A DNA stretch of 64,000 bases from an uncultured Candidatus Saccharibacteria bacterium (GTDB lineage Bacteria; Patescibacteriota; UBA1384; GWA2-35-9; CAYZGQ01). Positions 12,644-57,007 of this stretch are shown here, in pieces. A program made the translations under genes and the position numbers. The notes below the pieces were generated by a model. That model was not told the DNA's origin, ran no database searches, and saw only the letters and a list, made by a program, of their open reading frames with translations. How positions within the stretch are numbered: the stretch's first letter is position 1; each line of letters begins with the position of its first letter. The stretch lies in contig CAYZGQ010000001.1 in NCBI GenBank assembly GCA_964478135.1, positions 3,365 through 67,364 of the forward strand. Reading direction: 5' to 3'.

Positions 12644-13207
12644 ATGCCACGGAGGGGACTTAATTATCTTCTTTTTAGTTTAGTTGTTGTTTCGGCGATT
12701 TTGATGATCCTTTTTTGGCGCAGGAGTCCCAAACAGCCAGTTGACCGGCTGGCCCAGGAGCAGAAAGCGGCCGTTCTCTTTACCAGCGCCAAGGAGGCCC
12801 AAACATCGAGAGACTTTAAAACCGCGGTTGCCCGCTATCAGGAAGCGATCTCGTTCAACCCGAATGAGCCGGTTTATTTTGAGTCGCTCGGAGTCGCCCA
12901 GTATAACATTAAGGATTACCGGGGGGCGATTGCCAGTTTTGAGCAGGCGCTCAAATTGACGCCCGGGAGCGCCTTTTTATGGAACGGTTTGGCCAACGCC
13001 GCTCGCGACAGCGGCGATCGCCAGAGAGCCTTTGAGAGCTACCGCAAGGCGATCGAGCTTGACCCGGGTTTTTTGGTCGGCTACACCAACTTGGCTTACC
13101 TTTACCGAGACCAAGGCGCGGTTGACCGGGCTAAGGAGGTAATCGCCGAAGGTCTGGCCAAAAATCCCGACTCGGTTGAGTTGAAAGACATTTTAAAAAA
13201 CCTATGA
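12644..13207 (+). CDS. membrane-anchored TPR-repeat protein
   Basis: N-terminal TM helix, then 3-4 TPR units (A..Y..AI...P.......LG.A......Y..A...F..AL.L.P). The stop overlaps the next ATG (ATGA at 13204-13207). Confidence 0.8.
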   Translation: MPRRGLNYLLFSLVVVSAILMILFWRRSPKQPVDRLAQEQKAAVLFTSAKEAQTSRDFKTAVARYQEAISFNPNEPVYFESLGVAQYNIKDYRGAIASFEQALKLTPGSAFLWNGLANAARDSGDRQRAFESYRKAIELDPGFLVGYTNLAYLYRDQGAVDRAKEVIAEGLAKNPDSVELKDILKNL

Positions 13208-25444: not shown

Positions 25445-25893
25445 AAAAGCGACTGAACAATCAGCCTTCCTATCAAGAGAAAGTCTTTGACGCCTTGATT
25501 GGTGGAGTAGGCAAGATCGTCGGTTTAGTACGAATTAGCCCTAAATCGAGCAGACCGATCAAGTCAATTGATCGTTTGGAGATCACCACTCGCTGGCGTC
25601 AGATCGAGCAGAGTCATCGTTTAGGAGGTTCATCTGGGCTCAAGCAGGCGGTGATTGAAGCCGATAATCTGCTCGATAAGGCATTGAGAATGAAAGTTTC
25701 AGGCCAAACTATGGGGGAACGTTTAATTAACGCTCAAAGCTTAATAAGTTCTCAAGCCTATCAAGCCGCCTGGGAAGGACATAAACTGCGCAACCGTATT
25801 GTTCACCAAGACCAGAGCGAGGTGTTGAGTTTTGAGACAGAACAGGCGCTTAAGGGTTTCAAACAAGCTCTTCTCGAATTGGGAGGATTATGA
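25441..25893 (+). CDS. hypothetical protein inserted between gatA and gatB
   Basis: 150 aa. ATGA overlaps at both ends (25441-25444 and 25890-25893). Predicted helical C-terminal half (AVIEADNLLDKALR...GHKLRNRIVHQ). No family recognised. Confidence 0.6.
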   Translation: MKKRLNNQPSYQEKVFDALIGGVGKIVGLVRISPKSSRPIKSIDRLEITTRWRQIEQSHRLGGSSGLKQAVIEADNLLDKALRMKVSGQTMGERLINAQSLISSQAYQAAWEGHKLRNRIVHQDQSEVLSFETEQALKGFKQALLELGGL

Positions 25894-30400: not shown

Positions 30401-32896
30401 CAGACAAATACTCGATTGGGTCTCGGGACAAGTTCGCCACTTTTTCCGATTCATGTTGTTAGATCGGGCGGTGGCGGGACGTTGAATTTTGACACTTACG
30501 CCGGTTCTGGACTGGGCAACAGCGCCATTCAAGGTCGGCGGGCGGCCGGAACTTTGGCCAGCCCGACAGCCACTCTGTCGGATATGACTCTGTTCGATCT
30601 GCTTGGGTCTGGCTACGACGGTTCAGCTTTCACCGGACAGATCGCTTCGATACGCATGCAAGCCAATCAGAATTTTAGCCCGACCAGTCAGGGCACCAGG
30701 ATTGTCTTTTTGACCACGGCCAATGATTCGACGACCGCGACTGAACGGCTGCGGATCAAACACAATGGCGATGTGGCAATCGGCAACGGCTCGACCGATC
30801 AGATATTATTTGGTTCGACCGGCTCGGCGGTCTTCAACGAACAGGGCAATGATGCCGATTTTCGGGTCGAGGGCGACACCGACGCCAATCTATTGTTCAC
30901 CGACGCTTCGGCCGATGTCTTGGGTGTCGGCACCGCGACCTTCGAAGCCAACACCCGCAAGATGGAGGTGAGATACACCGATACCGCGACCTCCGGAGGC
31001 ACCTTTTCAACGATTAGATTGCTTTCGGACATCAATGCTCCTTCTAACTCCACGGCATCCCATTTTGGTCTAGGAACGACTTTAAGAACCGCGAGCGGCA
31101 ACGCTTCCAACTACACCGACTCCACGACAGGTATTAAGGCGATGAACTTTGTCGTCCAGCACCGAGGCACAGGCACGGTTACTAGAATGACAGGCTTGGG
31201 CGGCAATGTCACCAACAGCTCAAGCGGTACGATTACGACTGCCGAGAGCATCGTGGCTGGGGTTGACCTGACCTCAACCGGTCCGATTACTACTTGGAAC
31301 GCCCTGCGGGTCTTCGCGCCCTCTATCACTGGCTCTGGGGTGCTGACTAACGCTCGCGGGCTTTACATCAGTAACATCACAGGGGCCTCCACGCAGAATC
31401 TAGCTATCCTGACAGAAGGGGGCGGAGTAGTCTTTAATGAAAACGGCACGGACAGCGATTTCCGGGTCGAGGGCGACACCGATGCCAATCTATTGTTCAC
31501 CGACGCTTCGGCTGATCGGGTTGGTATAGGGACAAACACCCCTTCGCTCAAACTTCACGTGGTGGACAACTCTTCAACTTCGGCTATTTTCCAGCGCAAC
31601 AGCACTGCCACCGGTTCGAGTGTTGGCTCAACGGTTTTTTTGGATAATTTGGACACCACGACCAACAATGGAGCTCGTTTGATTTTTAGAACCAACGATA
31701 CTGGCGGCGCAACCAGGCAAGCGGCTGGAATAGGCTCGCTCGTAACCGCCCGGGGTGCTAGCAGTGTGACTGGCGATCTGGTATTCCTGACCAACAACAA
31801 CTCAACCGGCGTTTCCGAGGTTGCTCGGTTAACCGGAGCGGGCGCGCTTGGCATTGGTGAGTCGCCGGCGGCCAATATGAAGCTTGATGTCGCTGGCCGG
31901 GTTCAGATTAATCTGGCCGGAACCCAAACCTCGGTTGCCTTGTGCGGTAGTCACCCGGCTGGCGGCGGGGCCTCGGTTTCCGATGTCGAGATTGTTGACT
32001 GCACCGGCACGCCGGCGGCTGACTATGCCGAGATCTATCCGGTTTCAAACGATGTTGAATACACTGATTTAGTGGCTATCGGACCGGATTCGGTTAAAAC
32101 CACCGATCAAAACTCGATTCAAAGGCTAGTCAAAGCTACGATCGCCAATCAAGCCAACACTTTAGGAGTCGTTGTTGACAACTACGGCGATTTCTCCTCG
32201 GTCGGTCACAACATTAAAGGTTCTGATAATCCCAAACCGGTCGCGCTTTCAGGCCGGGTGAGAGTGAAAGTTTCCGGCCAGTCGGGCGCGATAGCGCCCG
32301 GCGATTATCTGACCGCCTCGTCCAAACCCGGTCGGGCGATGAAGGCGACCTCAAGCGCCAAGATAGTTGGAGTGGCTTTGGGATCATTTAGCGGCGACGA
32401 GGGGACGGTAATGATGTTTGTCAGCAATTTCTGGTATAATCCGTCTTCGGGCGAGAGTATTCAGGGTACCCAAACTGCATCCTACCAGGCGCTCGAAGTT
32501 GCCGGCCTTTTGCGAACGAATCTTTTGGAGGTTGCCGGGCCAGCCGAGTTCAAAGGTAGTTTAGTTGTCTGGGGTGAAACAACCTTTAAGGCACCGGTTG
32601 TGGTTCAAAAGACGCTGACTGCTAAAGAAAAGATCGTGTCCAAAGGTGACCTTGAGCTCAAGGGCAATCTTGTTCTAAACCCCGACATTAAAGGGTCAGC
32701 CTTGCCAGTGACTAAGGGCGCGACCAGCCTTGAGGTCGTGTTTAGCAAGCCCCAAGCTGACACAAGCTACTTGGCTTTCGTCACGCCATCCCAGCCGATC
32801 GGTTTTGGCGTTACCAAACAATCTGACAAAATGATCGTTACCTTTGAGGCCGAGGCGCCGGAAGGATTAATCCTGGATTGGCTGATAGTCAGATGA
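27446..32896 (+). CDS. giant (1816 aa from TTG 27446) membrane protein: 2x HTH_17-like repeats, one TM helix, tail-fibre-like ectodomain
   Basis: Two N-terminal repeats (LAQAGQLFGYSAGHMNYLARSGKIIALKLGGQWYTT.AAV.AY and LAQAAKQYGYSAGHLNLLAREGKLEAVKLGRNWYTTERAIDQY). TM helix FKLGLITLIVSGLAFGLG. Ectodomain with repeated ..YGGTG(L/Q)T..PSNGQLLIGNGSGYTLA.. and NE.G.D.DFRVEGDTDANLLFTDASAD motifs. The frame is open from 27392, so the start is uncertain. Confidence 0.85.
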   Translation: MIPLAQAGQLFGYSAGHMNYLARSGKIIALKLGGQWYTTRAAVSAYQAGQPQPENPTGFMSLAQAAKQYGYSAGHLNLLAREGKLEAVKLGRNWYTTERAIDQYRQGVREIELVPDSPDPALQISQPENINVKVRPVASYQGFGITETDDDAPGPTGGFRLKSVMVSRGFKLGLITLIVSGLAFGLGRLVQGWRTGELNGLGPSGIAAYLFGGELAQGDRLGSGFLGSITRERAQSDTPGVRPEASPSPDTVVNNTTVNNYNQTVNNDNRQVTNISTTKTAKDIVGELSDPQVSDDITINSSKAGSFSPSGNTTALTVKQSSASPSETPIVKIQNASGANLVTVDFEGNLGLAGGSRLEIGGQQIGIANLADGSSIASLSGSQTLTNKTLSAGVIYQGSAISPSYGGTGLTSAPSNGQLLIGNGSGYTLAALTAGTAINVTNGSGSITIANSGVTSLSAGTGIAVSGSSGAVTLTNSGVTALTGTTNQVSLSGSTGSITISTPQNIHTGASPTFSRLNLSEASNQLVLQSNSVTGSLTWTPVTSNKTITLPNLTGTAFLIDGGQTISSAVWNASAIGPSYGGTGQTTLAKGDILYGSATDIWSRLAVGSIGYVLQVSLDGVPEWATISSLSVGNADTLDSLDSADFLRATASDTFEGVNSRTLTIQSDLSSGARTVDLLTISQANDPTNNFTTGNLLTIAQLDTGSSADALELNQTGSGKAINIVSGELATAGNIVQTGATTLSTGTGAVSLGGDTTIATGKNLTLASGTGTFSQIFSNTTGTGANWNITNSGSSGTNTVGGIGLVLAGTANTTGSNVINAINFSNVPPATNNSYYALNVGTGFTDIVRYNGAQLISGSGVIQSAALSGNYTGVTGVGILSTGTWNADTIIFAKGGTGLTATPSNGQLLIGNGSGYTLAGLTGTTNQINVASGAGSITLSTPQNIHTAASPTFAGLTLSDLTPGSLVFAGAGGVISQDNAKFFWDQTNTRLGLGTSSPLFPIHVVRSGGGGTLNFDTYAGSGLGNSAIQGRRAAGTLASPTATLSDMTLFDLLGSGYDGSAFTGQIASIRMQANQNFSPTSQGTRIVFLTTANDSTTATERLRIKHNGDVAIGNGSTDQILFGSTGSAVFNEQGNDADFRVEGDTDANLLFTDASADVLGVGTATFEANTRKMEVRYTDTATSGGTFSTIRLLSDINAPSNSTASHFGLGTTLRTASGNASNYTDSTTGIKAMNFVVQHRGTGTVTRMTGLGGNVTNSSSGTITTAESIVAGVDLTSTGPITTWNALRVFAPSITGSGVLTNARGLYISNITGASTQNLAILTEGGGVVFNENGTDSDFRVEGDTDANLLFTDASADRVGIGTNTPSLKLHVVDNSSTSAIFQRNSTATGSSVGSTVFLDNLDTTTNNGARLIFRTNDTGGATRQAAGIGSLVTARGASSVTGDLVFLTNNNSTGVSEVARLTGAGALGIGESPAANMKLDVAGRVQINLAGTQTSVALCGSHPAGGGASVSDVEIVDCTGTPAADYAEIYPVSNDVEYTDLVAIGPDSVKTTDQNSIQRLVKATIANQANTLGVVVDNYGDFSSVGHNIKGSDNPKPVALSGRVRVKVSGQSGAIAPGDYLTASSKPGRAMKATSSAKIVGVALGSFSGDEGTVMMFVSNFWYNPSSGESIQGTQTASYQALEVAGLLRTNLLEVAGPAEFKGSLVVWGETTFKAPVVVQKTLTAKEKIVSKGDLELKGNLVLNPDIKGSALPVTKGATSLEVVFSKPQADTSYLAFVTPSQPIGFGVTKQSDKMIVTFEAEAPEGLILDWLIVR
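28685..28987 (+). repeat. intragenic duplicated segment, copy 1 (PSNGQLLIGNGSGYTLA ... GSITISTPQNIHTGASPTF)
   Basis: 28685-28736 is near-identical to 30152-30203 (about 3 mismatches in 52 nt). 28931-28987 is near-identical to 30248-30304 (4 mismatches in 57 nt). Confidence 0.85.
30152..30304 (+). repeat. intragenic duplicated segment, copy 2
   Basis: See copy 1. In this copy the two conserved blocks are only 44 nt apart, against 194 nt in copy 1. Confidence 0.85.
30857..30916 (+). repeat. 60-nt intragenic direct repeat, copy 1 (DFRVEGDTDANLLFTDASAD)
   Basis: Matches 31457-31516 at 57 of 60 nt by eye. Confidence 0.85.
31457..31516 (+). repeat. 60-nt intragenic direct repeat, copy 2
   Basis: Matches 30857-30916 at 57 of 60 nt by eye. 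Confidence 0.85.
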
Positions 32897-38678: not shown

Positions 38679-39587
38679 TTAATTCTTTTTGGATTGTTGA
38701 GTTATTGATTCAAAGATCGGTTCAAGTTGACCATCTAAAATAGAGTTTATTCTGGAAAAACTTTTACCCGATCGATGGTCGGTCACCCTGTCCTGGGGGA
38801 AGTTGTAAGTTCTGATTTTTTCCGATCGATCACCCGAACCAACCATTTGTTTGCGAACTTTATCGGTCTTGGCGTGGATGCTGGCATCCTCGATTTTATT
38901 GAGCCGGGCGGCTAAAACCGCCAGTGCGCTTTGTCTGTTGGCCGTTTGAGAACGTTCGTCCTGTGAGGTCGCGACTAGGCCGGTTGGCCGGTGAACGATT
39001 CGGACCGCTGTCTCAACCTTATTAACATTTTGACCGCCGTGACCGCCGGCGCGAAAAAATGATATTTCAAGCTCGCTTGGTTTTAATTTAGCCGAGTCTT
39101 GTTTGACAACCGGCAAAACCGCGACCGTGGCGGCGGATGTGTGAATTCGGCCTCTCTTTTCCGTTACTGGTGTTCGCTGGACCCGGTGAACACCAGCCTC
39201 GGTTTTGAGGGAGTGATAGGGACTTGGGTTAGTTTCAAGTTGAGCCGATCCTTGGTTTTGTTTAACTTCTACTATGGCCGATTTAATCCCGCCTTGACTT
39301 GACGTTTGAATCTCAATCGGCCGCCAAATCCACGATCGGCGATGGCAAAAGTGCCGATACATTCTTAAAAGATCGGCCGCCCAAATTTCAGCCTCACCCC
39401 CGCCCACGCCGGCCCTGATTTCAAGAAAACAGTCATTGACTCGTTCTTCCTTTTGGCCCTTAAACTGACCGGTTTGAGCCTCGAGGCGTTTAATGTCCTC
39501 GCGAGCCATCTGCCCGATCGCAGGATCAGGATTTGAAGCGAGCGCCCGCGCCTGATTGAGCTGTTTGACAATTGTTTGATAGTCCAT
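38679..39587 (-). CDS. prfA: peptide chain release factor 1 (short, 302 aa)
   Basis: The RF1-specific tripeptide context [15 protein letters not shown] (PxT), the GGQ motif [18 protein letters not shown], and [21 protein letters not shown]. Confidence 0.9.
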
Positions 39588-40068: not shown

Positions 40069-40959
40069 ATGGCTACCAAGATTATTAAAGTAAAAGCGGT
40101 CAAGTCAGCCCAAACAACTACCGGTCGCCAGAAGACCGAAAGCCATCTTATGGGTAAGACGAGCAAGGCCAAGGAGCCTTCAAAGATAGCCCTGCCAAGT
40201 GTTGAGAAACTATTTGAACTGGGCGCCCATTTTGGTCATCAGCGCTACCGATCTCATCCTGATTTTCAGGAATACGTCTGGCAAGTGCGCGATGGAGTTA
40301 TGATTTTGGATTTAAGCCAAACGCTTGACCGGCTCAAACTGGCGCTTGATTTTTTGGACAAGCAGAGTCGACTTGGCAAAAAAATACTAATTGTTGGGAC
40401 CAAGAGAATCAGTCGTGATTTGGTCGAGCGCTTGGGTAAAGAAACAAACACAGCTTGGGTCTCAAACCGGTGGTTGTCTGGTACTTTGACTAACTTTGCC
40501 ACTCTGATTGGACAAATCAAAAAACTCAATCGTTTAAGCGAGTTGATCGGCTCGAAAGAGTTTGAGCAGATGACTAAAAAGGAACGTTTAATCTGGGAGC
40601 GAAAACTGGCCAGGCTCCACGACAACTTTGACGGTTTGAGCAGTCTTGAGGCAAGACCGGATATATTAGTGGTGATTGACGGACACGCTCACCGGATTAG
40701 CACAGATGAAGCCAAACGTTTGGGGATCACCACGGTCGTGTTCGCCGACAGCGACACTGATCCTAGCCTGTGCGATTACTTGGTCCCGATTAACGATGAT
40801 TCACGATCAACGATCGAGCTGGTGATTAATTTAATCGGTCAAGCGATCGGCGGTGCCAGAACATCTGATCAGACAACAAAGCCGGACAGTCTAGTAAAAA
40901 GTGACAGAGCCAGAGCGCGCGGTTTAAGTAAAATCAATAATGTCCAAGACGTTAGTTGA
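40069..40959 (+). CDS. rpsB: ribosomal protein S2 with N- and C-terminal extensions
   Basis: The core LFELGAHFGHQRYRSHP...ILIVGTKR...RWLSGTLTN matches S2. An N-terminal extension of about 45 aa is present; an alternative start at ATG 40150 is possible. Confidence 0.9.
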   Translation: MATKIIKVKAVKSAQTTTGRQKTESHLMGKTSKAKEPSKIALPSVEKLFELGAHFGHQRYRSHPDFQEYVWQVRDGVMILDLSQTLDRLKLALDFLDKQSRLGKKILIVGTKRISRDLVERLGKETNTAWVSNRWLSGTLTNFATLIGQIKKLNRLSELIGSKEFEQMTKKERLIWERKLARLHDNFDGLSSLEARPDILVVIDGHAHRISTDEAKRLGITTVVFADSDTDPSLCDYLVPINDDSRSTIELVINLIGQAIGGARTSDQTTKPDSLVKSDRARARGLSKINNVQDVS

Positions 40960-41404
40960 GACGATCAAAAAGCTCCGGGATGAAACAGGGGCCGGACTAA
41001 TGGATGTTAAAAAGGCGCTCACTCAAGCTGGTTCGGATCTCAACAAGGCGAGAGTGATTCTGCGTCAGACAAGCGCTGTCAAAGCGGTTCAAAAGAGTGA
41101 ACGCTCGACCCAAGCCGGCTTGATCGAATCATACGTCCACGCCGGCAAAATCGGGGTGCTGGTTGAGCTGGGTTGTCAGACCGATTTTGTGGCGCGCACG
41201 AGTGAGTTCAAGGCGCTAGCCCATGAACTAGCCCTGCAAGTGGCCTCAATGGCCCCTAAAAACGTGACCGAGCTGTTTAGCCAAAACTACATCAAAGACG
41301 AGTCAACCACGATCAAGCAGATTGTGAATAACGCGATCGCGAAACTGGGCGAAAATATTCAAATTAAGCGTTTTGTAAGGTTTGAACTTGGTCAGGGCGA
41401 CTGA
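40940..41404 (+). CDS. tsf: elongation factor Ts (short form, 154 aa)
   Basis: The UBA-like N-terminus IKKLRDETGAGLMDVKKAL, YVH.GKIGVLVEL.CQTDFVART. 20-nt overlap with rpsB. Confidence 0.85.
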   Translation: MSKTLVETIKKLRDETGAGLMDVKKALTQAGSDLNKARVILRQTSAVKAVQKSERSTQAGLIESYVHAGKIGVLVELGCQTDFVARTSEFKALAHELALQVASMAPKNVTELFSQNYIKDESTTIKQIVNNAIAKLGENIQIKRFVRFELGQGD

Positions 41405-49557: not shown

Positions 49558-49842
49558 ATGGACGATTCAATGAATCCCGTTGGCGGTGGTACGGGTGCCG
49601 GCGATACCGGTTCTACCGACACTGGCGCCGGGGCTGTTCCTAGTACGCCAAGCGGCGACACCAGTACGGGGGATGCAGATCAAACCCCTGCTTCTGGGGG
49701 GGGTAGCTCGGTCCCAACGCCCCCAGCTCCTTCTGGCGGCGATGGTGGTTGGACTCCTGCTGGGGCTGATACAGCTAGCATACCAGATGGTGATTCCGAT
49801 TATTCGGCCGACGCAGTTCCAACTCCACCCGCCGGTCAGTAA
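49558..49842 (+). CDS. small acidic G/T/P/D-rich (probably disordered) protein
   Basis: GGAGG-N4-ATG, 94 aa, and a strong terminator immediately downstream. No TM helix or signal peptide. Low-complexity sequence. Confidence 0.5.
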   Translation: MDDSMNPVGGGTGAGDTGSTDTGAGAVPSTPSGDTSTGDADQTPASGGGSSVPTPPAPSGGDGGWTPAGADTASIPDGDSDYSADAVPTPPAGQ

Positions 49843-50024: not shown

Positions 50025-50777
50025 ATGATTGGTTACCCGCTGATTATTGGCAACTGGAAGATGATGACGACCTTGTCCGACGCGATGGTAGTGCTCTCGA
50101 TGCTTAAAAAGCGGGCCGAGGGGCTGGGACAGGTTGAAATCGTACCCTGCCCACCCTTTGTTTATTTAGTTCCAGCCAAAGAAGAGCTGGCGCGCGCCCC
50201 CCACAACCTTAAGCTGGGCGCGCAGAGTGTTTTTTGGAAGGAGCAAGGGGCTTACACTGGTCAGATTTCAATTAAAATGCTCAAGGGTTTAGTTGATTAT
50301 GTAATCGTTGGTCACAGCGAGGTCATGCGCTGGGGCTATGAAACGTTAGATCAAGTTAGTCGCAAAGTTAATTTGTGTCTTGATTACGGTCTAACCCCGA
50401 TAATTTGCCTAGGTGAGGAGCACAAAAGCGATCACTCCAGCGCGACACTAGGACGCAATCTCCAATTGATTCTCAAAAACGTCCCAAAGGCTGATTTTGA
50501 CAAGTTGGTTATCTGCTACGAGCCGGTTTGGGCGATTTCCAGGGGCGATCTTAAAACAAGCCAAGCCGCCAGCGGCAGTTATGCCCAAAAAATGGCTTCC
50601 AAAATTCGCCAGGTTATTGGAGGCCAAGGCCGTATTCTCTACGGCGGGTCAGTCACAGCCGAAAACGCGGTCGAGTTTTTGCACCAGGATGATATCCAAG
50701 GTTTATTGGTTGGGGCGGCGTCACTTAAGGCAAGAGAGTTTTTAGCGATCTGCGAGCTAGCGAGCGATCTGGGCTAG
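50025..50777 (+). CDS. tpiA: triosephosphate isomerase
   Basis: IIGNWKM, GAYTGQIS, VIVGHSE, ICYEPVWAI, and YGGSV.... Confidence 0.9.
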   Translation: MIGYPLIIGNWKMMTTLSDAMVVLSMLKKRAEGLGQVEIVPCPPFVYLVPAKEELARAPHNLKLGAQSVFWKEQGAYTGQISIKMLKGLVDYVIVGHSEVMRWGYETLDQVSRKVNLCLDYGLTPIICLGEEHKSDHSSATLGRNLQLILKNVPKADFDKLVICYEPVWAISRGDLKTSQAASGSYAQKMASKIRQVIGGQGRILYGGSVTAENAVEFLHQDDIQGLLVGAASLKAREFLAICELASDLG

Positions 50778-50808
50778 TCAGACTTATGGAAATAATTAGC
50801 TGCCAGCT

Positions 50809-51867
50809 GTGAAACTAAGAACCGTCAAGAACGTTAGTTGTTCGGGCCAACGAGTTTTGGTCAGAACCGGTTTCGATGTTCCGATTAAAAGTGGTCGGGT
50901 CCTAGATATTGGCAGGCTCGAAGCCGCTGGCCCAACCTTAAAGTATTTGATTAAGCGCCAAGCTCGTTTGATTATCGCGTCTCATCAGGGCCGTCCTGAT
51001 GGAAAATTTTTAGCCGCCTTGAGTCTTAGGCCGATCATAAAGGTGATTGAACGACTGCTTAATCGGCCGGTTATTTTTGCCAAGAGATGCGTTGGCGTTC
51101 AAACTAGAAAAATGGTCAGTCAGCTTGTGCCAGGCGAGGTAATGTTGCTTGAAAACTTGCGTTTTGAGCCGGGTGAGACGGCCAACGATCCAAGTTTTGC
51201 CCGTCAACTGGCCGGATTGTGCGACATTTATGTCAACGAGGCTTTCCCTAACTGTCATCGAAACCACGCCAGCATGACCGGTCTGGCTAAACTTGTGCCA
51301 GCCTACGCCGGGTTTCAAGTTGAACAAGAGGTTTTTCAGCTTTCCAAGCTCCTGGCGTCTCCGGCTAAACCATTTGTGGTGATTATCGGCGGAGCCAAGG
51401 TTGAGGACAAAGCGTCAGTCATCGATCGGTTAAAGAGCAAGGCCGATTGGGTGCTGGTCGGCGGTAAGACAGCCCTTGAAATTAACCAGCGCGGTTTGTA
51501 TCGAGCTGACAAAAACGTCTTGGTCGCTGATGATTTTGTCCTGGACGAATCAGGTGTCAAGCTTGATATTAGCCGAAAGGTTGTCGATTGGTTTACCCCG
51601 AAGATTTTGAAGGCCCAAACTATTTTTTGGAATGGCAATCTAGGCAAGACCGAGGATGCCCGTTTTAGGGCTGGCAGCGAGACGATTGGGGCGCTTGTGG
51701 CCAATTCGTCAGCCGTGAGCGTGATTGGCGGCGGCGATACAGCCAACCTTGTCCGAGAGTTAGGGATTGCTCGCAAGATGACCTTTATCTCAACCGGCGG
51801 CGGGGCGACGACCCAATTTCTGGCTACCGGCGGACGTTTGCCAGGACTCGAACCGCTCTATCGTTAG
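50809..51867 (+). CDS. pgk: phosphoglycerate kinase (short, 352 aa)
   Basis: GTG start. RVLVRTGFDVP, ASHQGRP, LENLRF..GE, and C-terminal ISTGGGA... Confidence 0.9.
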   Translation: MKLRTVKNVSCSGQRVLVRTGFDVPIKSGRVLDIGRLEAAGPTLKYLIKRQARLIIASHQGRPDGKFLAALSLRPIIKVIERLLNRPVIFAKRCVGVQTRKMVSQLVPGEVMLLENLRFEPGETANDPSFARQLAGLCDIYVNEAFPNCHRNHASMTGLAKLVPAYAGFQVEQEVFQLSKLLASPAKPFVVIIGGAKVEDKASVIDRLKSKADWVLVGGKTALEINQRGLYRADKNVLVADDFVLDESGVKLDISRKVVDWFTPKILKAQTIFWNGNLGKTEDARFRAGSETIGALVANSSAVSVIGGGDTANLVRELGIARKMTFISTGGGATTQFLATGGRLPGLEPLYR

Positions 51868-51971
51868 TTTTTAGACTTGTCAAGTCTACTGGTAGCCCTA
51901 CATGCTCTGAACAATGTCAGTTAATTATGATTTGAACCTTGTTAGGTTTTTGTAATTATCAGTGTCAGAGG

Positions 51972-52000
51972 TTTACAATCAAACCTTGATTAGTTATGGT
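51972..52000 (+). promoter_or_regulatory. putative promoter of the ASCH / hotdog / reductase unit
   Basis: TTTACA 51972-51977, a 17-nt spacer, then TATGGT 51995-52000. GGAGG-N4-ATG of the first gene follows at 52009-52020. Confidence 0.45.
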
Positions 52001-52017
52001 GAGCGGCTGGAGGAGAT

Positions 52018-52410
52018 ATGGCAAAGCATCTGGCTATTTTTAGCCCTAATCAACTGATCGAAAAAATTTTTCGCTCTATCAAGACGGTTGATGGTCGCTT
52101 GACCCAAGACCGAGTCGCTCCCTATGGGTTGGTTAAAAAAGGCGACACAATCCTGATTAAAATCAGCGGCGGACCGGTTTTAGGTCAGGTTGAAGTGGAT
52201 AACGTTTTGTTTTTTGAGCTGACAGATGGGGAACTATTGGGTAAACTTCGGAAAGAGTATGGGGCTGACATGGCGGTTGACGATCGTTTCTGGGAACTTA
52301 AACGAGAGGCCCGCTTTGCCAGCATCATCTTCTTAACCAAACCCAAACGTTACCTGACGGCGCTCAAGTTCAAAAAGCGCGATCGCCGGGCTTGGGTCGT
52401 AGTGGGATAA
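52018..52410 (+). CDS. ASCH (PUA-like) domain protein
   Basis: 130 aa. IFSPNQLIEKIFRSIKTVDGRL....VKKGDTILIK..GGPVLGQVEVDNV fits the ASCH pattern (...I..G.KT.E.R.....i..GD.i.l......v.g.v.v..v). Confidence 0.5.
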   Translation: MAKHLAIFSPNQLIEKIFRSIKTVDGRLTQDRVAPYGLVKKGDTILIKISGGPVLGQVEVDNVLFFELTDGELLGKLRKEYGADMAVDDRFWELKREARFASIIFLTKPKRYLTALKFKKRDRRAWVVVG

Positions 52411-52427
52411 AAGAAGGAGGTTGTCCT

Positions 52428-52544
52428 TTGACAATTATTCGTCGGTCGATTTTATCGGTCGGCTCGTGCATTTTAATGGCGGAAAATTTGTCGGATTGTG
52501 GGATTAGTGGATCGATGGCAAAGCTAAAAGGAGGTAGGGAATGA
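52428..52544 (+). CDS. candidate 38-codon small ORF (below ORF-track threshold)
   Basis: The orphan strong SD GAAGGAGG 52413-52420 sits 7 nt upstream of TTG 52428. Translation is MTIIRRSILSVGSCILMAENLSDCGISGSMAKLKGGRE. Its TGA overlaps the ATG of the next gene (ATGA 52541-52544). Confidence 0.3.
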   Translation: MTIIRRSILSVGSCILMAENLSDCGISGSMAKLKGGRE

Positions 52545-53404
52545 ACAATCTTACTCTAGAAAATCTTTCCTTGCCCAAGGAAGATTATTTTAAGATCAAC
52601 TTTCAAGTTACCGATGAGATGTGCCTGGGTCATTTTGATCCCAAACGACACTACGGGGTCTTGCCTGGTGCGTACCTTTTTGGGTTGGTTTGTGATTATT
52701 TCACCCAGAATAATAACCGTTCAATCACTGCAATTACTAAAGCTCAATTTACCCGACTGATACTACCGAGCATGGAGGTGTTAATCGAAGTTTGGATCAA
52801 GGGCAATCAGGTAAGAGTGGTTTGTTTTGCCGAAGGCCGGTCGGCGGCTACCATGGATCTGTTGCTGACCGAGTTGTCCGGGTCACAGGACGATTGCCCA
52901 GGCGCAGTGTCTTTGGCCGGAACTTATCTCCCATCCGATCAACTTAATGACTTATTGCCGTTTAGTTCTGATTTTATATTGATTCGGGATGTCGTAATCG
53001 GAGAGGATTGTTCCTTCTGTCTTGTTAGATCGAAACAAGACCCTCGTTTTTTTGACGATCAAAGGTTAAAATTGTCGGGTCTGATCGAAGCCGGTAATCA
53101 TTTATTAATCACTCACGTCTTATCACTCCATCAGGAGCTCGTCGGACAGGTGCCGTTTCTGGTCAGGCTGACCGATGTCAGCTTCTCGGGCCCTCGACTG
53201 GTTAATCCGAATTGTGTTCTACTGATGGTTGATAATCTTAATATGCGAGGTAATCACGGACGTGCTCGAGTAATCGGCTGTCAGACGGATGTAACAGAAA
53301 TCTACCGGGCTCAAGTTAGCTTCCGTAGTGACTCAAGTGGTGTCGAGCATAAATACCAACCCGGTACGCCAGTACCGAGCAACCCATCCCCAGCTTTGCC
53401 TTGA
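52541..53404 (+). CDS. tandem (double) hotdog-fold protein, FabZ/FabA-like
   Basis: The N-half has CLGHFDPKRHYGVLPGAYLFG (compare FabZ GHFPGKPIFPGVLILEA). The C-half has DPRFFDDQRLKLSGLIEAGNHL. See the findings for details. Confidence 0.6.
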   Translation: MNNLTLENLSLPKEDYFKINFQVTDEMCLGHFDPKRHYGVLPGAYLFGLVCDYFTQNNNRSITAITKAQFTRLILPSMEVLIEVWIKGNQVRVVCFAEGRSAATMDLLLTELSGSQDDCPGAVSLAGTYLPSDQLNDLLPFSSDFILIRDVVIGEDCSFCLVRSKQDPRFFDDQRLKLSGLIEAGNHLLITHVLSLHQELVGQVPFLVRLTDVSFSGPRLVNPNCVLLMVDNLNMRGNHGRARVIGCQTDVTEIYRAQVSFRSDSSGVEHKYQPGTPVPSNPSPALP

Positions 53405-54152
53405 ACCGGCTAAAACGGTGGTAATAACTGGCGGATCGGGGACGATCGGTCGAGCGATGGTCTGGCAATTCGGGGCCAATGGCTGCGACGTAGTGGTCCA
53501 GTATAATAGAGACGAACCGGCGGCTCGATTTACTGCCGAGTCAGCCCAACGGCAGTTTGGGGTCAAGACCTGGCTTGTCCAGCAAGATTTTGCTCAACCA
53601 GGATCTGGCAAGAATTTCTGGCTCAATGTCAAAGCTATAGTCGGCCAAACCCCGGACATTCTGGTCATCAATGCCGGTTTCCTTGGCATCGGATCAAACG
53701 GGCTTTCCCTGACTGAAGAAGAATTATATGACAGTATCCAAGTCAACGCCGTGCAACCGTTTTTCTTAATGCAGGCGATGATGAATGACCCGGACACCCC
53801 CTCTGATTCCCAAATCTTGGTCCATCTTTCTAAGGGTTGGGACAAGTGGCTGCCCGGTTACGCTGGATTAGGCATGGCCAAAGCCCTTCTGATGCGGATG
53901 GTCATTGAACTAGCCCAAGTAGGAGCGCCCCGCCGTATTTGCGTCAACGCCATTACGAGCGACCTAGTTGCCCAGACCGACGTTATGAATTGGTTTCCCC
54001 CTCATGAGGTCGCGCTCCACCTCGATCGGATGCCCTTTGGGAGACTGATATACCCAGAGGATGTGGCAATATTTTTCTGCCACACTGCCTGTAACTTAGG
54101 TGTTACCGGCCAAAACCTTGTGTTCGATGGCGGGGTAGGGAATGTAGCATGA
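53328..54152 (+). CDS. SDR-family enoyl-[ACP] reductase-like protein (FabL/FabI-type Y-x6-K)
   Basis: VVITGGSGTIGRA (TGxxxGxG), NAG, and PGYAGLGMAKALL (Y-x6-K, as in FabI NYNVMGLAKASLE and FabL NYTTVGVSKAALE). The GTG start at 53328 has no SD and overlaps the hotdog gene by 77 nt in the +1 frame, so the start is uncertain. Confidence 0.7.
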   Translation: MTQVVSSINTNPVRQYRATHPQLCLEPAKTVVITGGSGTIGRAMVWQFGANGCDVVVQYNRDEPAARFTAESAQRQFGVKTWLVQQDFAQPGSGKNFWLNVKAIVGQTPDILVINAGFLGIGSNGLSLTEEELYDSIQVNAVQPFFLMQAMMNDPDTPSDSQILVHLSKGWDKWLPGYAGLGMAKALLMRMVIELAQVGAPRRICVNAITSDLVAQTDVMNWFPPHEVALHLDRMPFGRLIYPEDVAIFFCHTACNLGVTGQNLVFDGGVGNVA

Positions 54153-54163
54153 GATTTTCAGTC

Positions 54164-54190
54164 AAAGAAGGCCCAAACAGGCCTTCTTTT
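54164..54190 (+). terminator. intrinsic terminator
   Basis: AAAGAAGGCC-caaaca-GGCCTTCTTT forms a perfect 10-bp stem that runs into a T tract, 12 nt after the reductase stop. Confidence 0.8.
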
Positions 54191-54223
54191 GAGAGCCGGG
54201 TCGTGCTAGAGTAATTGGCACAG

Positions 54224-55486
54224 ATGGCGAATCGTCACTCTAGTTCGAGCCGACTTTCAGTCCCCGAGATTAAGGTGAGCCTCAAAAAGTTGCCTCGGTC
54301 ACGGGTTGCGCTGACGATTAGAGTATTCCAACAAATGTTAGGCGCCACGGCCAAACGGGTCTACTCAGCCATTGCTCCCCAAGTGACAGTGGCCGGCTTT
54401 CGGCCGGGCAAGGCGCCGATTGACAAAACGATCGAGGCGTTCGGTCGCGTCCGTTTTAGCAACGAAGTCCTTAACTTAGCCCTAAAAGAAAGCTACCAGC
54501 AGGGGCTTGAGAAAAATCAACTTGTGCCAGTGGCTGGGCCCTCAATCAGCTTGGCGGCTTGGCGGCTCGACGAGCGTGGCCGGCCGCTTGAGAATCTAGT
54601 CTACACGGCTGAAGTTGATGTCATGCCCAAGGTGTCAGTCAGCGGCTACCAGTCGATCCGTCTCAAAGACTATCAACCGTTGTCAAGCGAGGTGACCGAT
54701 CAGGAGGTTGAGGCGGTGTTAGATCATTTGAGCCGTCAGCGGGGTGAGCTCAAACCGCTTGACCGACCGGCGAGACTGGGAGACTGGATCCTTATTAGTT
54801 TTAAGGGCAGTATCGAAGGTGTGGTCAAAGAGCCGCTCACGTCAAAAAATTATCCTCTTGTTCTTGGGTCGAGGCGAATGGTCCATGGTTTTGAAGATAA
54901 TGTGGTTGGTATGAAGGCTGGTCAAAAAAAAACCTTTGAGTTGAGACTGCCCAAGTCAATCAAGGATTTGGGCGGCCGGAGAGCGGGCTTTGAAGTTTTG
55001 CTCCATGAGGTTAAAGAAATTATTAAGCGGCCGATTGACCAGGCCTTTGCCCAGTCTCTTGGTCACGAATCTCTTGAGAGTCTTAAAAAGGCGATCAGGG
55101 CCAATTTAGTTCGGGAAAAGAGTCAACGGGCGCGTCAACACCTGGAACAGACCGCTATACGGGAACTGCTTAAAAAACTGTCAGTCGAGATTCCAGACAG
55201 CTTAATCGAGCGTGAGCTTGGGCGGATGCTCGATTCGATTCGTGAGAGCGTTACCAAACAGGGACTGACCATGGAGGGCTACTTGGCTTCAATTAAAAAG
55301 ACGATCGAGCAACTGGCCCAAGACCTTCGAACCCGAGCCCAAGACTCGGTTCGAGCCGGTTTAGCCTTGACCGCACTTGGCCAGGCCGAAGCAATTGATA
55401 CCAATCAGCCAGGGTCAACTAATAAAGTGATTAACAGATTGATCGAGATTGGACTGCGATCAGATAAGAAATCAGATAAGAATTGA
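54224..55486 (+). CDS. tig: trigger factor
   Basis: The N-terminal ribosome-binding region includes GFRPGKAP. An FKBP-like middle domain ([14 protein letters not shown]....) and a helical C-terminal domain follow. I chose ATG 54224 over the ORF-track TTG 54215. Confidence 0.85.
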
Positions 55487-55610
55487 CAATACGAGACCGA
55501 TTGATGATAGGGCTGACCTAACGAGTTTCGAAACCGAGCCGATCGGGCGATCGGGACAAATTATGGACAAACTGTCCAAAAACACGTTAAAATACAGTCA
55601 ATATAAGGCA

Positions 55611-56222
55611 ATGAATCAAAAAACCGTTGAGACAAACCAAATGCTCGTGCCAATGGTCCTGGAAAAAAGCCAGTTTGGCGAGCGAGCCTACGATATTTTT
55701 TCTCGCTTGCTCAAGGATCGGATTATTTTTCTGGGCACGCCGATCACCGACGAAGTGGCCAATCTTGTAATGGCCCAACTGCTTTTTTTGGAAGCAGACG
55801 ATCCTAAAAAGGACATTCAGATGTATATTAACTCGCCCGGGGGAGTGGTCACGGCTGGTTTGGCGATCTATGACACCTTGTGTTATCTCAAGTCCGATGT
55901 TTCGACTATCTGTATCGGTCAGGCCGCCTCGGCGTCGGCAATTTTACTGGCCGCTGGCACTAAAGGCAAGCGCTACGCCCTGCCTAACGCCCGGGTTATG
56001 ATTCACCAGGTTATGGGCGGAGCCGAGGGTCAGGCCAAGGATGTTGAGATTCAAACCCGGGAAATCATGCGGGTCAAACAAGCGATTAACCAGATTATGG
56101 CGAGACACACCGGCCAGCTGATCGATAAAATTGAGCGCGACACCGACCGAGATTTTTACATGAGCGCCGAGGAAGCCAAAAAGTATGGTATTATTGATCA
56201 GATTATTACCAAAGCGAAGTGA
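55611..56222 (+). CDS. clpP: ATP-dependent Clp protease proteolytic subunit
   Basis: [32 protein letters not shown], catalytic Ser in [14 protein letters not shown], and MIHQ. I moved the start to ATG 55611; the ORF-track start at 55449 overlaps tig. Confidence 0.9.
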
Positions 56223-56251: not shown

Positions 56252-57007
56252 TTGATCCCTAATCAGATAAAAAAAGTGTCTAAGTCCAAGACAGATACTC
56301 GAGATGGTTATTATGGCCGATCGTATTATTGCCAGGCTGAACGGGGCTATCACGAAAGCCATCTTGATCGGGCGCGAGATCAAAAGGCGCTCCATCCCTT
56401 TTTTTGGTCAGTCTTAACCGAGGGAAAGTTTCAGCCAAAGACACTGCTCGATGCCGGTTGCGGTTTGGGTCTGTACGCCGATTTTGCGGCGAGCCAAGGG
56501 GTGGTTGTCACCGGTCTTGACCGTTCCAGTTTTGCCTGTCAGGAATCAAGTCAGCTACTCGGATCAAACAAGGTGGTCAGGCATGATTTGGAAAAGACAG
56601 CCATACCCTTTAGGGCCAACAGATTTGATGCGGTAGCTTGCCTGGACGTGATCGAGCACGTCAAGAGGGATCAGTATGTCCTTAATCAAATTTACCGGGT
56701 AATTAAACCTGGCGGACGAATTTTAATCACCACACCCAACGCGTCTGGCTGGTGGCATAGAATTTTTGGTCAAAGTGATTTTAGCCATGTTAATGTCCAG
56801 GATCAGCGCTACTGGCGCCAACTTTTAACCAAGACCGGCTTTATCAATATCGAGCTAACCGGCATAGCTTTATTCGATCTCTTGCCCCATAAAAGATTGA
56901 GAAAACTTTTTAAACGCCGACGGGCGCGGCCGATCCGATTATCTTGGCCACCCTTTTTGGTTTGGGCCTTAGTTATCAGAGCCTCAAAGCCGGTAGGCTG
57001 GTCTTAG
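56252..57007 (+). CDS. class I SAM-dependent methyltransferase
   Basis: Motif I LLDAGCGLGLYA, then VTGLDRS, FDAVACLDVIEHV and IKPGGRILITTPN. Confidence 0.75.
   Translation: MIPNQIKKVSKSKTDTRDGYYGRSYYCQAERGYHESHLDRARDQKALHPFFWSVLTEGKFQPKTLLDAGCGLGLYADFAASQGVVVTGLDRSSFACQESSQLLGSNKVVRHDLEKTAIPFRANRFDAVACLDVIEHVKRDQYVLNQIYRVIKPGGRILITTPNASGWWHRIFGQSDFSHVNVQDQRYWRQLLTKTGFINIELTGIALFDLLPHKRLRKLFKRRRARPIRLSWPPFLVWALVIRASKPVGWS

What the first reader, a model, noticed from the sequence alone, without database searches (positions are those of the whole stretch)
51972..54190. Self-contained unit: ASCH protein, orphan-SD small ORF, double-hotdog and FabL/FabI-like reductase
**Boundaries.** A promoter candidate (TTTACA-17-TATGGT) and a perfect 10-bp-stem terminator bracket exactly these genes.

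**Contents.** The last two genes look like the dehydratase (FabZ-like hotdog) and enoyl-reductase (Y-x6-K SDR) steps of type II fatty-acid elongation. No ACP, ketosynthase or ketoreductase is visible in this window.

**Why it is odd.** Small-genome CPR-type bacteria are generally reported to lack fatty-acid synthesis. An isolated DH+ER pair coupled to an RNA-binding-type ASCH domain and a Cys/Ser-containing 38-residue peptide is not a described pathway.

**Possible functions.** Remodelling or saturation of scavenged host acyl chains, or modification of a small peptide or metabolite.
Basis: partly seen in the sequence, partly recalled or inferred. Interest (0 to 1): 0.6.

Follow-up and report, generated by a model that had tools for sequence, protein, structure and literature searches.

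The report
Lineage-specific reductase plus orphan-gene insertion
An uncultivated Patescibacteria (CPR) bacterium carries a 1.8-kb insertion, found in no other genome searched, that encodes a FabL-like reductase and an orphan protein with a weak dehydratase-like half; it is suggestive of acyl-chain chemistry but unproven and only modestly interesting.

Summary

- **Reductase (SDR):** solidly an SDR. Its best matches are FabL, and it has the FabI/FabL-type Y-x6-K motif. It scores 99 bits against a FabL cut-off of 328.
- **"Double hotdog":** a true orphan, matching only itself among 1.84 billion representative proteins, with no Pfam, NCBIfam or PDB hit. In a targeted test its N-terminal half resembles FabZ (0 of 3000 shuffles reach its score; GHF…PG histidine motif aligned). 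The C-terminal half is not significant. AlphaFold2 failed.
- **ASCH call:** sub-threshold (E = 0.1). This gene is not part of the unit.
- **Synteny:** a Patescibacteria MAG (L056) has tpiA–pgk–ASCH-like–tig–clpP with tig abutting the ASCH-like gene. The small ORF, orphan, SDR and terminator (window 52411–54214) are therefore a lineage-specific insertion.
- **Small ORF:** has a well-spaced Shine-Dalgarno site but no codon-usage support.
- **fab/acp genes:** none in the 64 kb. The whole genome could not be inventoried, and conserved linkage cannot be tested.

Most likely this is a diverged dehydratase/enoyl-reductase pair acting on an acyl thioester (confidence about 0.4). Interest is low to moderate.

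The parts
51950..52000 (+). Two overlapping sigma-70-like hexamer pairs in the 150-nt pgk/ASCH-like gap: TTGTAA-18-TACAAT and TTTACA-17-TATGGT. Function is unproven. The equivalent gap in the relative L056 is only about 20-40 nt.
   Evidence: each 9/12 matches
52018..52410 (+). 130-aa conserved hypothetical protein, possibly ASCH/PUA-like. It belongs to the conserved tpiA-pgk-X-tig-clpP backbone, not to the insertion.
   Evidence: Pfam ASCH E=0.1, below cut-off. A 54%-identical homologue sits between pgk and tig in L056 and has no Pfam hit. The two-sequence profile finds nothing in the PDB. AF2 pLDDT is 42.
52411..54214 (+). Lineage-specific insertion of about 1.8 kb relative to the Patescibacteria MAG L056, where the ASCH-like gene overlaps tig by 16 nt.
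   Evidence: No GC anomaly, no flanking repeats, no Rfam match.
52414..52544 (+). AAGGAGG Shine-Dalgarno site (52414-52420), 7 nt upstream of a TTG-initiated 38-codon ORF (52428-52544). The ORF's TGA overlaps the ATG of the next gene (ATGA). This is a possible leader or small peptide; coding status is unresolved.
   Evidence: SD and spacing. Codon-usage log-likelihood shows no preference for this frame (-157.7 vs -157.3). GC1<GC2, which is atypical for this genome's genes. No family hit.
52541..53404 (+). 287-aa orphan protein. The N-terminal half (about residues 1-127) is hotdog/FabZ-like with a GHF..PG histidine motif. The C-terminal half (about 128-263) is collinear with FabZ but not significantly similar. 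The tail (264-287) is Pro/Ser-rich and linker-like.
   Evidence: Only a self-hit among 1.84e9 representatives. No Pfam/NCBIfam/PDB hit. FabZ HMM 8.5 bits, 0/3000 shuffles. Best non-FabZ ORF by best-domain score among 2269 background ORFs. Weak match in the same register to a hydratase-2-type dehydratase, 2cdh_S, E=1.5. Strong SD, and a GC1>GC3>GC2 coding pattern.
53328..54152 (+). FabL/FabI-type (Y-x6-K) short-chain dehydrogenase/reductase. The start is uncertain: GTG 53328/53337/53340 would overlap the orphan ORF by 65-77 nt, and GTG 53418 is the alternative. The public gene call from ATG 53457 (231 aa) removes the NAD(P)-binding glycine motif.
   Evidence: Pfam adh_short_C2 81.9 bits. NCBIfam FabL 99 bits vs cut-off 328. 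PDB 3oic FabL E=3.6e-19. N-terminal L..K..ITGG is conserved with homologues.
54165..54190 (+). Perfect 10-bp GC-rich hairpin followed by UUUUGAG. It is a likely intrinsic terminator and part of the insertion, 25-35 nt upstream of tig.
   Evidence: dG -17.9 kcal/mol, z -2.8

Best explanation
The tpiA-pgk-(ASCH-like)-tig-clpP housekeeping cluster of an uncultivated Patescibacteria bacterium has gained a 1.8-kb, lineage-specific two-enzyme insertion.

- **First enzyme (inferred):** a very diverged single-chain hotdog protein. Its N-terminal half keeps the FabZ-type active-site histidine loop. It probably dehydrates or hydrates a 3-hydroxyacyl/enoyl thioester.
- **Second enzyme:** an intact NAD(P)H-dependent SDR with FabI/FabL-type Tyr-x6-Lys spacing. 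It probably reduces the resulting enoyl C=C.
- **Expression:** the two genes abut or overlap and are followed by their own terminator, so they are likely expressed together.
- **Shown:** SDR family and motifs, orphan status, and the insertion (synteny).
- **Inferred:** hotdog fold, dehydratase activity, enoyl-reductase specificity, the coupling of the two steps, and the substrate or carrier (unknown; no ACP nearby).
- **ASCH-like gene:** an older neighbour, not part of the module.
For: - **SDR:** Pfam adh_short_C2 81.9 bits. FabL is the top NCBIfam and PDB hit. YAGLGMAK aligns with FabL YTTVGVSK, and there is no Tyr at K-4. The glycine motif, NAG and the conserved N are intact.
- **Orphan, alignment:** hhalign P=9e-4, aligning GHF..PG and ITKAQFTRLILP with GIDKARFKRPVVPGD.
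- **Orphan, background test:** top non-FabZ ORF by best-domain score among 2269 background ORFs.
- **Orphan, second hotdog family:** a match in the same register to a hydratase-2-type dehydratase chain.
- **Orphan, C-terminal half:** shows LNDLLPFSSDFILIRDVV against FabZ ILELLPHRFPFLLVDRV.
- **Real gene:** 287 codons, AAGGAGG SD 6 nt upstream, and a coding-type GC1/GC2/GC3 pattern.
- **Insertion:** L056 has pgk-ASCH-tig-clpP without these genes.
- **Terminator:**
Against: - No curated profile (Pfam, NCBIfam) or PDB sequence search recognises the 287-aa protein.
- Corrected for about 25,000 families, the FabZ signal would be E≈2. The hypothesis was also generated from the same sequence.
- The C-terminal half is not significant.
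- The FabZ catalytic Glu has no clear equivalent.
- AF2 gave pLDDT 35, and the fold search on that model was meaningless.
- The SDR scores far below the FabL cut-off (99 vs 328 bits). Glucose dehydrogenase, FabG and other reductase models score almost as well.
- No ACP, CoA ligase or other partner is in the 64 kb.
- No second genome carries the pair, so co-selection cannot be shown.
Confidence: 0.4

Rival explanations
1. There is no coupled chemistry. The SDR is a stand-alone oxidoreductase of unknown, non-lipid substrate. The 287-aa orphan is an unrelated fast-evolving or recently arisen protein, and its FabZ-like motifs are chance.
For: - The orphan has no homologue and no profile hit.
- Its FabZ signal is weak and post hoc.
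- The SDR's scores against many reductase families lie within about 15-40 bits of FabL.
- The nearest SDR homologues sit in unrelated contexts.
Against: - Two hotdog families (FabZ, and a hydratase-2-type chain) align to the same region in the same register.
- The orphan ranks top among 2269 background ORFs.
- Y-x6-K spacing is characteristic of enoyl reductases (established SDR knowledge).
- The two genes are tightly packed or overlapping and share a terminator.
Confidence: 0.3
2. The pair works like MFE-2 or mycobacterial FabG4-HtdX. The hotdog protein is an enoyl-thioester hydratase/dehydratase, and the SDR is a 3-hydroxyacyl dehydrogenase or 3-ketoacyl reductase rather than an enoyl reductase.
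For: - The N-terminal half matches a hydratase-2-type dehydratase chain, 2cdh_S, over residues 30-93.
- FabG-type models hit the SDR at E≈1e-16 to 1e-17 for the best of them.
- A conserved SDR + dehydratase pair outside the main FAS cluster is known in mycobacteria (PMC6008564).
Against: - The SDR lacks the classical YxxxK tyrosine that ketoreductases and dehydrogenases use, and has the FabI/FabL spacing instead.
- The hydratase-2 match has E=1.5.
Confidence: 0.15
3. The insertion is decaying or non-functional. One version of this is an ancestral fused dehydratase-linker-reductase gene split by a 1-nt insertion at CCT-T-GAA (53399-53405), leaving the SDR without a proper start.
For: - The orphan ORF ends in a Pro/Ser-rich linker-like tail.
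- The conserved SDR N-terminus (L-E-P-A-K-T-V-V-I-T-G-G) begins exactly at the orphan's stop codon, in the +1 frame.
- No SD precedes any candidate SDR start.
- In the overlap, the orphan's frame has the better coding likelihood.
- CAI of the SDR is 3.4 SD below the window mean.
Against: - Both ORFs are intact over 287 and about 250-274 codons.
- All SDR catalytic and cofactor motifs are preserved.
- The sequence is identical across this region in independent assemblies.
- GTG starts exist at 53328-53340 and 53418.
Confidence: 0.1
4. This is ordinary type II fatty-acid synthesis, with fabZ and fabL/fabI here and the remaining fab/acp genes elsewhere in the genome.
For: The whole genome could not be inspected. 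Only about 65 kb was available.
Against: - Genuine FabZ proteins score >170 bits on the same HMM that gives this protein 6.6-8.5 bits.
- The SDR is far below the FabL cut-off.
- The pair is absent from the syntenic locus of the related MAG and from every other genome in 1.84e9 representatives.
- Patescibacteria are reported to lack fatty-acid synthesis (PMC12455944).
Confidence: 0.05

Closest known systems
FabL, enoyl-ACP reductase III of Bacillus subtilis (PDB 3oic; NCBIfam NF005975), and the FabI 'divergent SDR' class
   Same: - Best NCBIfam and PDB hit, aligned over nearly the full length.
- Classical TGxxxGxG cofactor motif combined with Tyr-x6-Lys catalytic spacing.
   Different: - 99 bits against the 328-bit equivalog cut-off.
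- No neighbouring fab genes.
- An N-terminal region overlaps the upstream gene.
- Activity is untested.
FabZ, 3-hydroxyacyl-ACP dehydratase (hotdog fold; Pfam PF07977)
   Same: - The N-terminal half aligns across the GHF..PG histidine loop, the central helix and the 'IDxARFxxPVxPGD' strand.
- The C-terminal half begins with an LLPxxxxFxLxDxV-like motif.
   Different: - No Pfam hit.
- A 3-residue insertion in the histidine loop.
- No clear catalytic Glu.
- A single chain of 287 aa instead of a roughly 150-aa subunit that forms dimers and hexamers.
- The second half lacks the His (FFDDQ).
- No homologues exist.
Double-hotdog dehydratases/hydratases: PKS/FAS-I DH domains, MFE-2 hydratase 2, and mycobacterial HtdX paired with the SDR FabG4
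   Same: - A length of about 260-290 aa, compatible with two hotdog repeats carrying one active site.
- Adjacency to an SDR, as in fabG4-htdX (PMC6008564) or the fused SDR-hydratase of MFE-2 (my own knowledge).
- A weak match to a hydratase-2-type chain.
   Different: - The second repeat is unproven.
- The PKS HxxxGxxxxP motif and the MaoC hydratase motif were not found by eye in the sequence.
- The partner SDR looks like an enoyl reductase rather than a ketoreductase.
ASCH domain (Pfam PF04266; e.g. E. coli YqfB)
   Same: A sub-threshold Pfam match over residues 13-72, and a small size.
   Different: - Below the gathering threshold.
- The homologue in L056 gives no hit.
- There is no PDB hit with the two-sequence profile.
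- The gene belongs to the pgk-tig backbone, not to the insertion.

Membership tests
SDR superfamily (PF13561/PF00106) | Score above the Pfam gathering threshold, plus a Rossmann glycine motif | tested here: met
   81.9 and 71.8 bits against cut-offs of 27 and 26.6; ITGGSGTIG is present
FabL enoyl-ACP reductase (NCBIfam NF005975, equivalog) | Score at or above the curated cut-off of 328 bits | tested here: not met
   99 bits
FabL/FabI-type enoyl reductases | Catalytic Tyr-x6-Lys spacing instead of the classical Tyr-x3-Lys | tested here: met
   YAGLGMAK aligns with FabL YTTVGVSK. Position K-4 is Leu, whereas the classical homologues P0004 and P0005 have Tyr there.
FabL/FabI-type enoyl reductases | NAD(P)H-dependent reduction of trans-2-enoyl-ACP/CoA | not testable with these tools
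   Needs an enzyme assay
FabZ/FabA dehydratase (PF07977) | Profile match above the family threshold | tested here: not met
   No Pfam or NCBIfam hit for the whole protein or its halves at E≤10. My own FabZ HMM gives 8.5 bits (N-terminal half) and 0.1 bits (C-terminal half).
FabZ/FabA dehydratase (PF07977) | Active-site His in the 'GHFP..P..PG' loop before the central helix | tested here: met
   The N-terminal half has GHFDPKRHYGVLPG, aligned to GHFP-KPIFPG with a 3-residue insertion. The C-terminal half has FFDDQ, with no His.
FabZ/FabA dehydratase (PF07977) | Catalytic Glu/Asp on the central helix | tested here: inconclusive
   - In the N-terminal half, hhalign leaves a gap opposite the FabZ Glu segment, so there is no aligned equivalent.
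- In the C-terminal half, a Glu in 'SGLIEAG' is out of register by 2-4 residues in the alignment.
Double-hotdog fold | Two consecutive hotdog repeats (helix wrapped by a 5-6-stranded sheet) | tested here: inconclusive
   - AF2 pLDDT is 35, and the Foldseek search on it was meaningless.
- The two halves do not match each other.
- The C-terminal half vs FabZ gives P=0.05-0.24.
ASCH domain (PF04266) | Score at or above the gathering threshold of 21.2 bits | tested here: not met
   13.7 bits, E=0.1. The homologue in L056 gives no hit. AF2 pLDDT is 42.
Type II fatty-acid synthase gene set | ACP, ketosynthase, ketoreductase and malonyl transferase encoded in the genome | tested here: inconclusive
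   None is present in the 64-kb window (Pfam tables; ACP and FabZ tblastn).
Conserved operon / functional module | The same gene pair is linked in other genomes | tested here: not met
   - The orphan has no homologue.
- SDR homologues lack hotdog neighbours.
- The syntenic locus L056 lacks both genes.

The most novel reading that the evidence does not exclude
A fatty-acid-synthesis-less Patescibacteria bacterium has acquired a minimal, carrier-independent dehydratase + enoyl-reductase module.

- The module would be built from a single-chain pseudo-dimeric FabZ descendant and a FabL-like SDR.
- The two might even be joined into one DH-linker-ER polypeptide by a +1 shift at CCU-UGA-A (53399-53405).
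- Its role would be to convert scavenged host 3-hydroxy or enoyl acyl chains into saturated acyl chains for its own membrane.
Probability: 0.12. Interest if true: 0.6.

Novelty: new variant of a known kind. Interest (0 to 1): 0.3.

Why it matters
Suppose the pair really dehydrates and saturates acyl thioesters in an organism with no fatty-acid synthase. It would then be a concrete enzyme-level handle on how CPR/Patescibacteria remodel lipids taken from hosts, which is an open question. It would also give an example of a FabZ-type dehydratase collapsed into a single asymmetric chain.

As it stands, this is a singleton insertion with one well-classified but ordinary enzyme family (SDR) and one orphan. 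Its main practical value is as a small, cheap expression-and-assay target. It is also a caution that the ASCH-like gene is merely a conserved neighbour.

Tried and rejected
**Searches on the 287-aa protein**
- The word-indexed search of 5.8e9 proteins and the exhaustive phmmer of 1.84e9 representatives found only the protein itself. Two further hits were repeat-protein artefacts in MBG/TIG domains.
- Pfam, NCBIfam, PADLOC, PHROGs and PDB sequence searches of the whole protein and its halves found nothing usable.
- A comparison with a FabZ-like fragment from a MAG labelled Saccharibacteria (L005) showed no similarity.

**Structure prediction**
- Single-sequence AlphaFold2 gave pLDDT 35 for the orphan and 42 for the ASCH-like protein.
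- Foldseek on the poor orphan model gave meaningless hits.
- I did not build an AF2 alignment from FabZ sequences, because that would be circular.

**Other tests**
- My third homologue search (FabZ profile) returned only enterobacterial FabZ at 75-100% identity. I therefore spent the metagenome scan to collect 80 more diverse FabZ genes for a home-made HMM.
- The PGK-based genome scan did not find the source genome among GTDB representatives; the best match was 42% identity. It did by luck recover the syntenic MAG L056.
- dN/dS was impossible. Independent assemblies are 99.98-100% identical.
- Extending the contig beyond the window failed.
- Sample accessions were not found in the literature.
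- Rfam (gathering and E-value modes), repeat search and GC profile gave no riboswitch, no mobile-element ends and no compositional island.

**Rejected leads**
- The CMAS-like methyltransferase two genes downstream is a generic class I methyltransferase, not a lipid link.
- A prfB-type frameshift in the release-factor gene was rejected, as no CTTTGAC-like site is present.
Full report
**1. What is in the sequence**

Four + strand ORFs lie between pgk (50809-51867) and tig (about 54224-55486):
- 52018-52410 (130 aa)
- 52428-52544 (38 aa from TTG)
- 52541-53404 (287 aa)
- 53328-54152 (274 aa from GTG)

Such sites are only mildly enriched: 8 were found against 3.1±2.1 in shuffles.

The hairpin at 54165-54190 has a perfect 10-bp stem (dG -17.9 kcal/mol, z = -2.8) followed by UUUUGAG. 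The terminator scan misses it because the T-run is short.

Strong Shine-Dalgarno sites (GGAGG) precede the 130-aa and 287-aa ORFs. One also sits 7 nt before the TTG of the small ORF, whose TGA overlaps the next ATG.

**2. The reductase**

The last ORF is an SDR beyond doubt: adh_short_C2 scores 81.9 bits.

- Its best NCBIfam model is FabL, at 99 bits against a cut-off of 328. Glucose dehydrogenase (85 bits) and other reductases follow.
- Its best solved relative is B. subtilis FabL, 3oic, E = 3.6e-19. There, YAGLGMAK aligns with the FabL Tyr-x6-Lys.
- In an alignment with its nearest database relatives (25-29% identity), the window protein and P0003 have Tyr at K-7. The classical SDRs P0004 and P0005 have Tyr at K-4.

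By motif it is therefore of the FabI/FabL 'divergent' enoyl-reductase type. It is not a FabL equivalog by score.

Public gene calls start it at M44 (231 aa), which would delete the ITGGSGTIG cofactor motif. The conserved L-x-x-x-K-x-x-x-I-T-G-G N-terminus starts exactly at the stop codon of the upstream ORF, in the +1 frame. The in-frame starts available are:
- GTG 53328/53337/53340, giving a 65-77 nt overlap with no SD;
- GTG 53418, which gives MVITGG….

In the overlap, the upstream ORF's frame has the better coding likelihood: -101.0 against -103.6. The true frame wins in 606 of 645 control windows.

**3. The 'double hotdog'**

This protein is an orphan.

- The word-indexed search of 5.8e9 proteins and an exhaustive phmmer of 1.84e9 cluster representatives return only the protein itself. 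Two other hits are repeat-protein artefacts.
- Pfam, NCBIfam, PADLOC, PHROGs and PDB sequence searches are empty, also for the separate halves.
- AlphaFold2 without an alignment failed (pLDDT 35). Foldseek on that model is meaningless.

- BLASTP against E. coli FabZ gave two short, collinear, motif-level matches.
- I built a FabZ HMM from 80 metagenomic FabZ genes, E. coli FabZ and one MAG FabZ.
- The N-terminal half (residues 1-127) scores 8.5 bits (E = 9e-5 for a single target). None of 3000 shuffles reaches that score, the maximum being 5.7.
- hhalign gives P = 9e-4. It aligns GHFDPKRHYGVLPG to the FabZ histidine loop GHFPxKPxxPG, and ITKAQFTRLILPSMEV to GIDKARFKRPVVPGDQL.
- Among 2269 ORFs of at least 150 aa from the window and 85 unrelated loci, this ORF is the best non-FabZ by best-domain score.
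- A PDB search with the N-terminal half also lists a hydratase-2-type 'dehydratase' chain, 2cdh_S, at E = 1.5. It aligns in the same structural register over residues 30-93.
- The C-terminal half (128-263) is collinear with FabZ and begins LNDLLPFSSDFILIRDVV, against ILELLPHRFPFLLVDRV. It is not significant: 156 of 3000 shuffles reach its score, and hhalign gives P = 0.24. It lacks the His.
- The two halves do not detectably match each other.

Corrected for all Pfam families, the N-terminal signal would be E≈2. I therefore treat a hotdog fold in the N-terminal half as likely (about 0.7) and a second repeat as merely plausible.

The ORF itself looks real. It has 287 codons, an AAGGAGG site 6 nt upstream, and a GC1>GC3>GC2 pattern like the window's other genes.

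**4. The ASCH-like gene and the real boundaries**

Pfam ASCH is sub-threshold: E = 0.1, 13.7 bits against 21.2.

The PGK-based scan of GTDB representatives did not find the source genome; the best match was 42% identity. Among the loci it fetched, however, one is syntenic. This is L056, a MAG titled 'Patescibacteria group bacterium', JBASTP010000002.1. Its gene order is:
- M50 protease – aaRS – tpiA – pgk
- a 54%-identical homologue of the 130-aa protein
- tig, which overlaps that homologue by 16 nt
- clpP (83% identity)

Three conclusions follow.
- The organism is a Patescibacteria relative.
- The ASCH-like gene is an old member of the pgk-tig backbone.
- Window 52411-54214 (small ORF/spacer, orphan, SDR and terminator) is an insertion specific to this lineage.

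A deletion in L056 is the alternative. It is less parsimonious, given that neither gene has relatives anywhere.

The L056 homologue gives no ASCH hit. A two-sequence profile finds nothing in the PDB. AF2 failed. The ASCH fold therefore remains unverified.

The insertion shows no GC anomaly, no flanking repeats and no Rfam match.

**5. The small ORF**

It has a canonical SD, good spacing and a stop/start overlap. Against that, GGAGG occurs 60 times on this strand, mostly inside genes. The ORF's frame has no codon-usage advantage: -157.7 against -157.3. Its GC1<GC2 pattern is atypical. No family or homologue exists. Translation is possible, perhaps 50%, but unproven.

**6. Inventory and context**

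Precomputed and new Pfam annotations cover the whole window. They show housekeeping genes, GatCAB, sortase, giant surface proteins and glycosyltransferases. There is no ACP, ketosynthase, FabD, FabG, acyl ligase or Pls gene.

The methyltransferase at 56252-57007 that touches the CMAS family is a generic class I enzyme.

Patescibacteria are reported to lack fatty-acid synthesis and to recycle lipids (PMC12455944, citing Probst et al. 2020). The rest of this genome could not be reached.

**7. Mechanism**

The best-supported reading is a diverged (de)hydratase plus an enoyl-type reductase, expressed together and acting in sequence on an acyl thioester. Confidence is about 0.4. Only the SDR identity, the orphan status and the insertion are shown. 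The substrate and carrier are unknown.

The rivals are:
- an unrelated orphan plus a generic SDR (0.3);
- a hydratase + dehydrogenase/ketoreductase pair like MFE-2 or mycobacterial FabG4-HtdX (PMC6008564) (0.15);
- a decaying insertion or split fusion (0.1);
- part of an ordinary FASII (0.05).

**8. Verdict**

The four-gene 'unit' is not: it is a two-gene insertion next to a conserved neighbour.

The dehydratase/enoyl-reductase idea survives as the leading hypothesis, but it rests on one ordinary enzyme family and weak motif-level evidence for an orphan. Conserved linkage cannot be tested. Interest is 0.3.

It would be a new variant of a known kind (an isolated, highly diverged DH+ER pair) if the enzymology holds.

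Noticed in passing
window 53295-53420: The orphan ORF ends in a Pro/Ser-rich linker-like tail (…PGTPVPSNPSPALP) and the stop CCT-TGA. The SDR's conserved N-terminus (L-EPAKTVVITGG) begins at that very spot in the +1 frame. Deleting one T would fuse the two into a dehydratase-linker-reductase protein. This could be a gene fission, a long overlap, or a +1 frameshift site.
   Followed up: partly
window 53457 (ATG) vs 53328-53418: Public gene calls give the SDR as 231 aa starting at M44 (P0002). That start removes the NAD(P)-binding glycine motif, so it is almost certainly wrong.
   Followed up: yes
L056 7243-11187 vs window 50025-56222: The gene order tpiA-pgk-(130-aa conserved hypothetical)-tig-clpP is shared with a Patescibacteria MAG. 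The 130-aa family has strongly conserved motifs (RLTQDRxAPYG, EVEVDNVLFF, FLTKPKRY) and no recognised domain. In L056 it overlaps tig by 16 nt.
   Followed up: partly
window 49558-49842: A 94-aa ORF with a strong SD (AAGGAGGTTCGATG) lies between the aaRS gene and tpiA. It has no family hit. The corresponding roughly 290-nt gap in L056 holds no ORF of 80 aa or more. It is possibly another lineage-specific small gene.
   Followed up: partly
window 25441-25893: A 150-aa ORF with no Pfam hit is wedged between gatA and gatB, overlapping each by 4 nt. This is an unusual extra gene inside the gatCAB cluster.
   Followed up: no
window 38679-39587 (-) and 40940-41404 (+): The window has a short peptide-chain release factor (302 aa; the PCRF match starts at profile position 43) and a very short EF-Ts (154 aa). 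No prfB-type frameshift site was seen upstream of the release factor.
   Followed up: partly
window 27446-32896 and 13204-19461: Two giant proteins are encoded here. One is 1816 aa with only an N-terminal HTH_17 domain recognised. The other is 2085 aa with purple-acid-phosphatase-N/fn3-like repeats and Gly-rich GGAGG-encoded stretches.
   Followed up: no
window 51873-51889: A palindrome TAGACTTGTCAAGTCTA lies right after the pgk stop. It is a weak hairpin (z = 0.1) with no T-run, so it may be a protein-binding site rather than a terminator.
   Followed up: partly
L005 13489-13838: A contig of a MAG labelled 'Candidatus Saccharibacteria' carries a divergent FabZ-like ORF (…DGHFPGQPIFPMHWVFEMSAQ…) cut off by the contig end. 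This suggests that some CPR-labelled bins do encode FabZ-type proteins. It is not similar to the window's orphan.
   Followed up: partly
window 52541-53404, residue 45: The only protein variant seen in other samples is a Cys/Tyr difference at residue 45 (P0001 vs P0006), on the predicted central helix just after the histidine loop.
   Followed up: no
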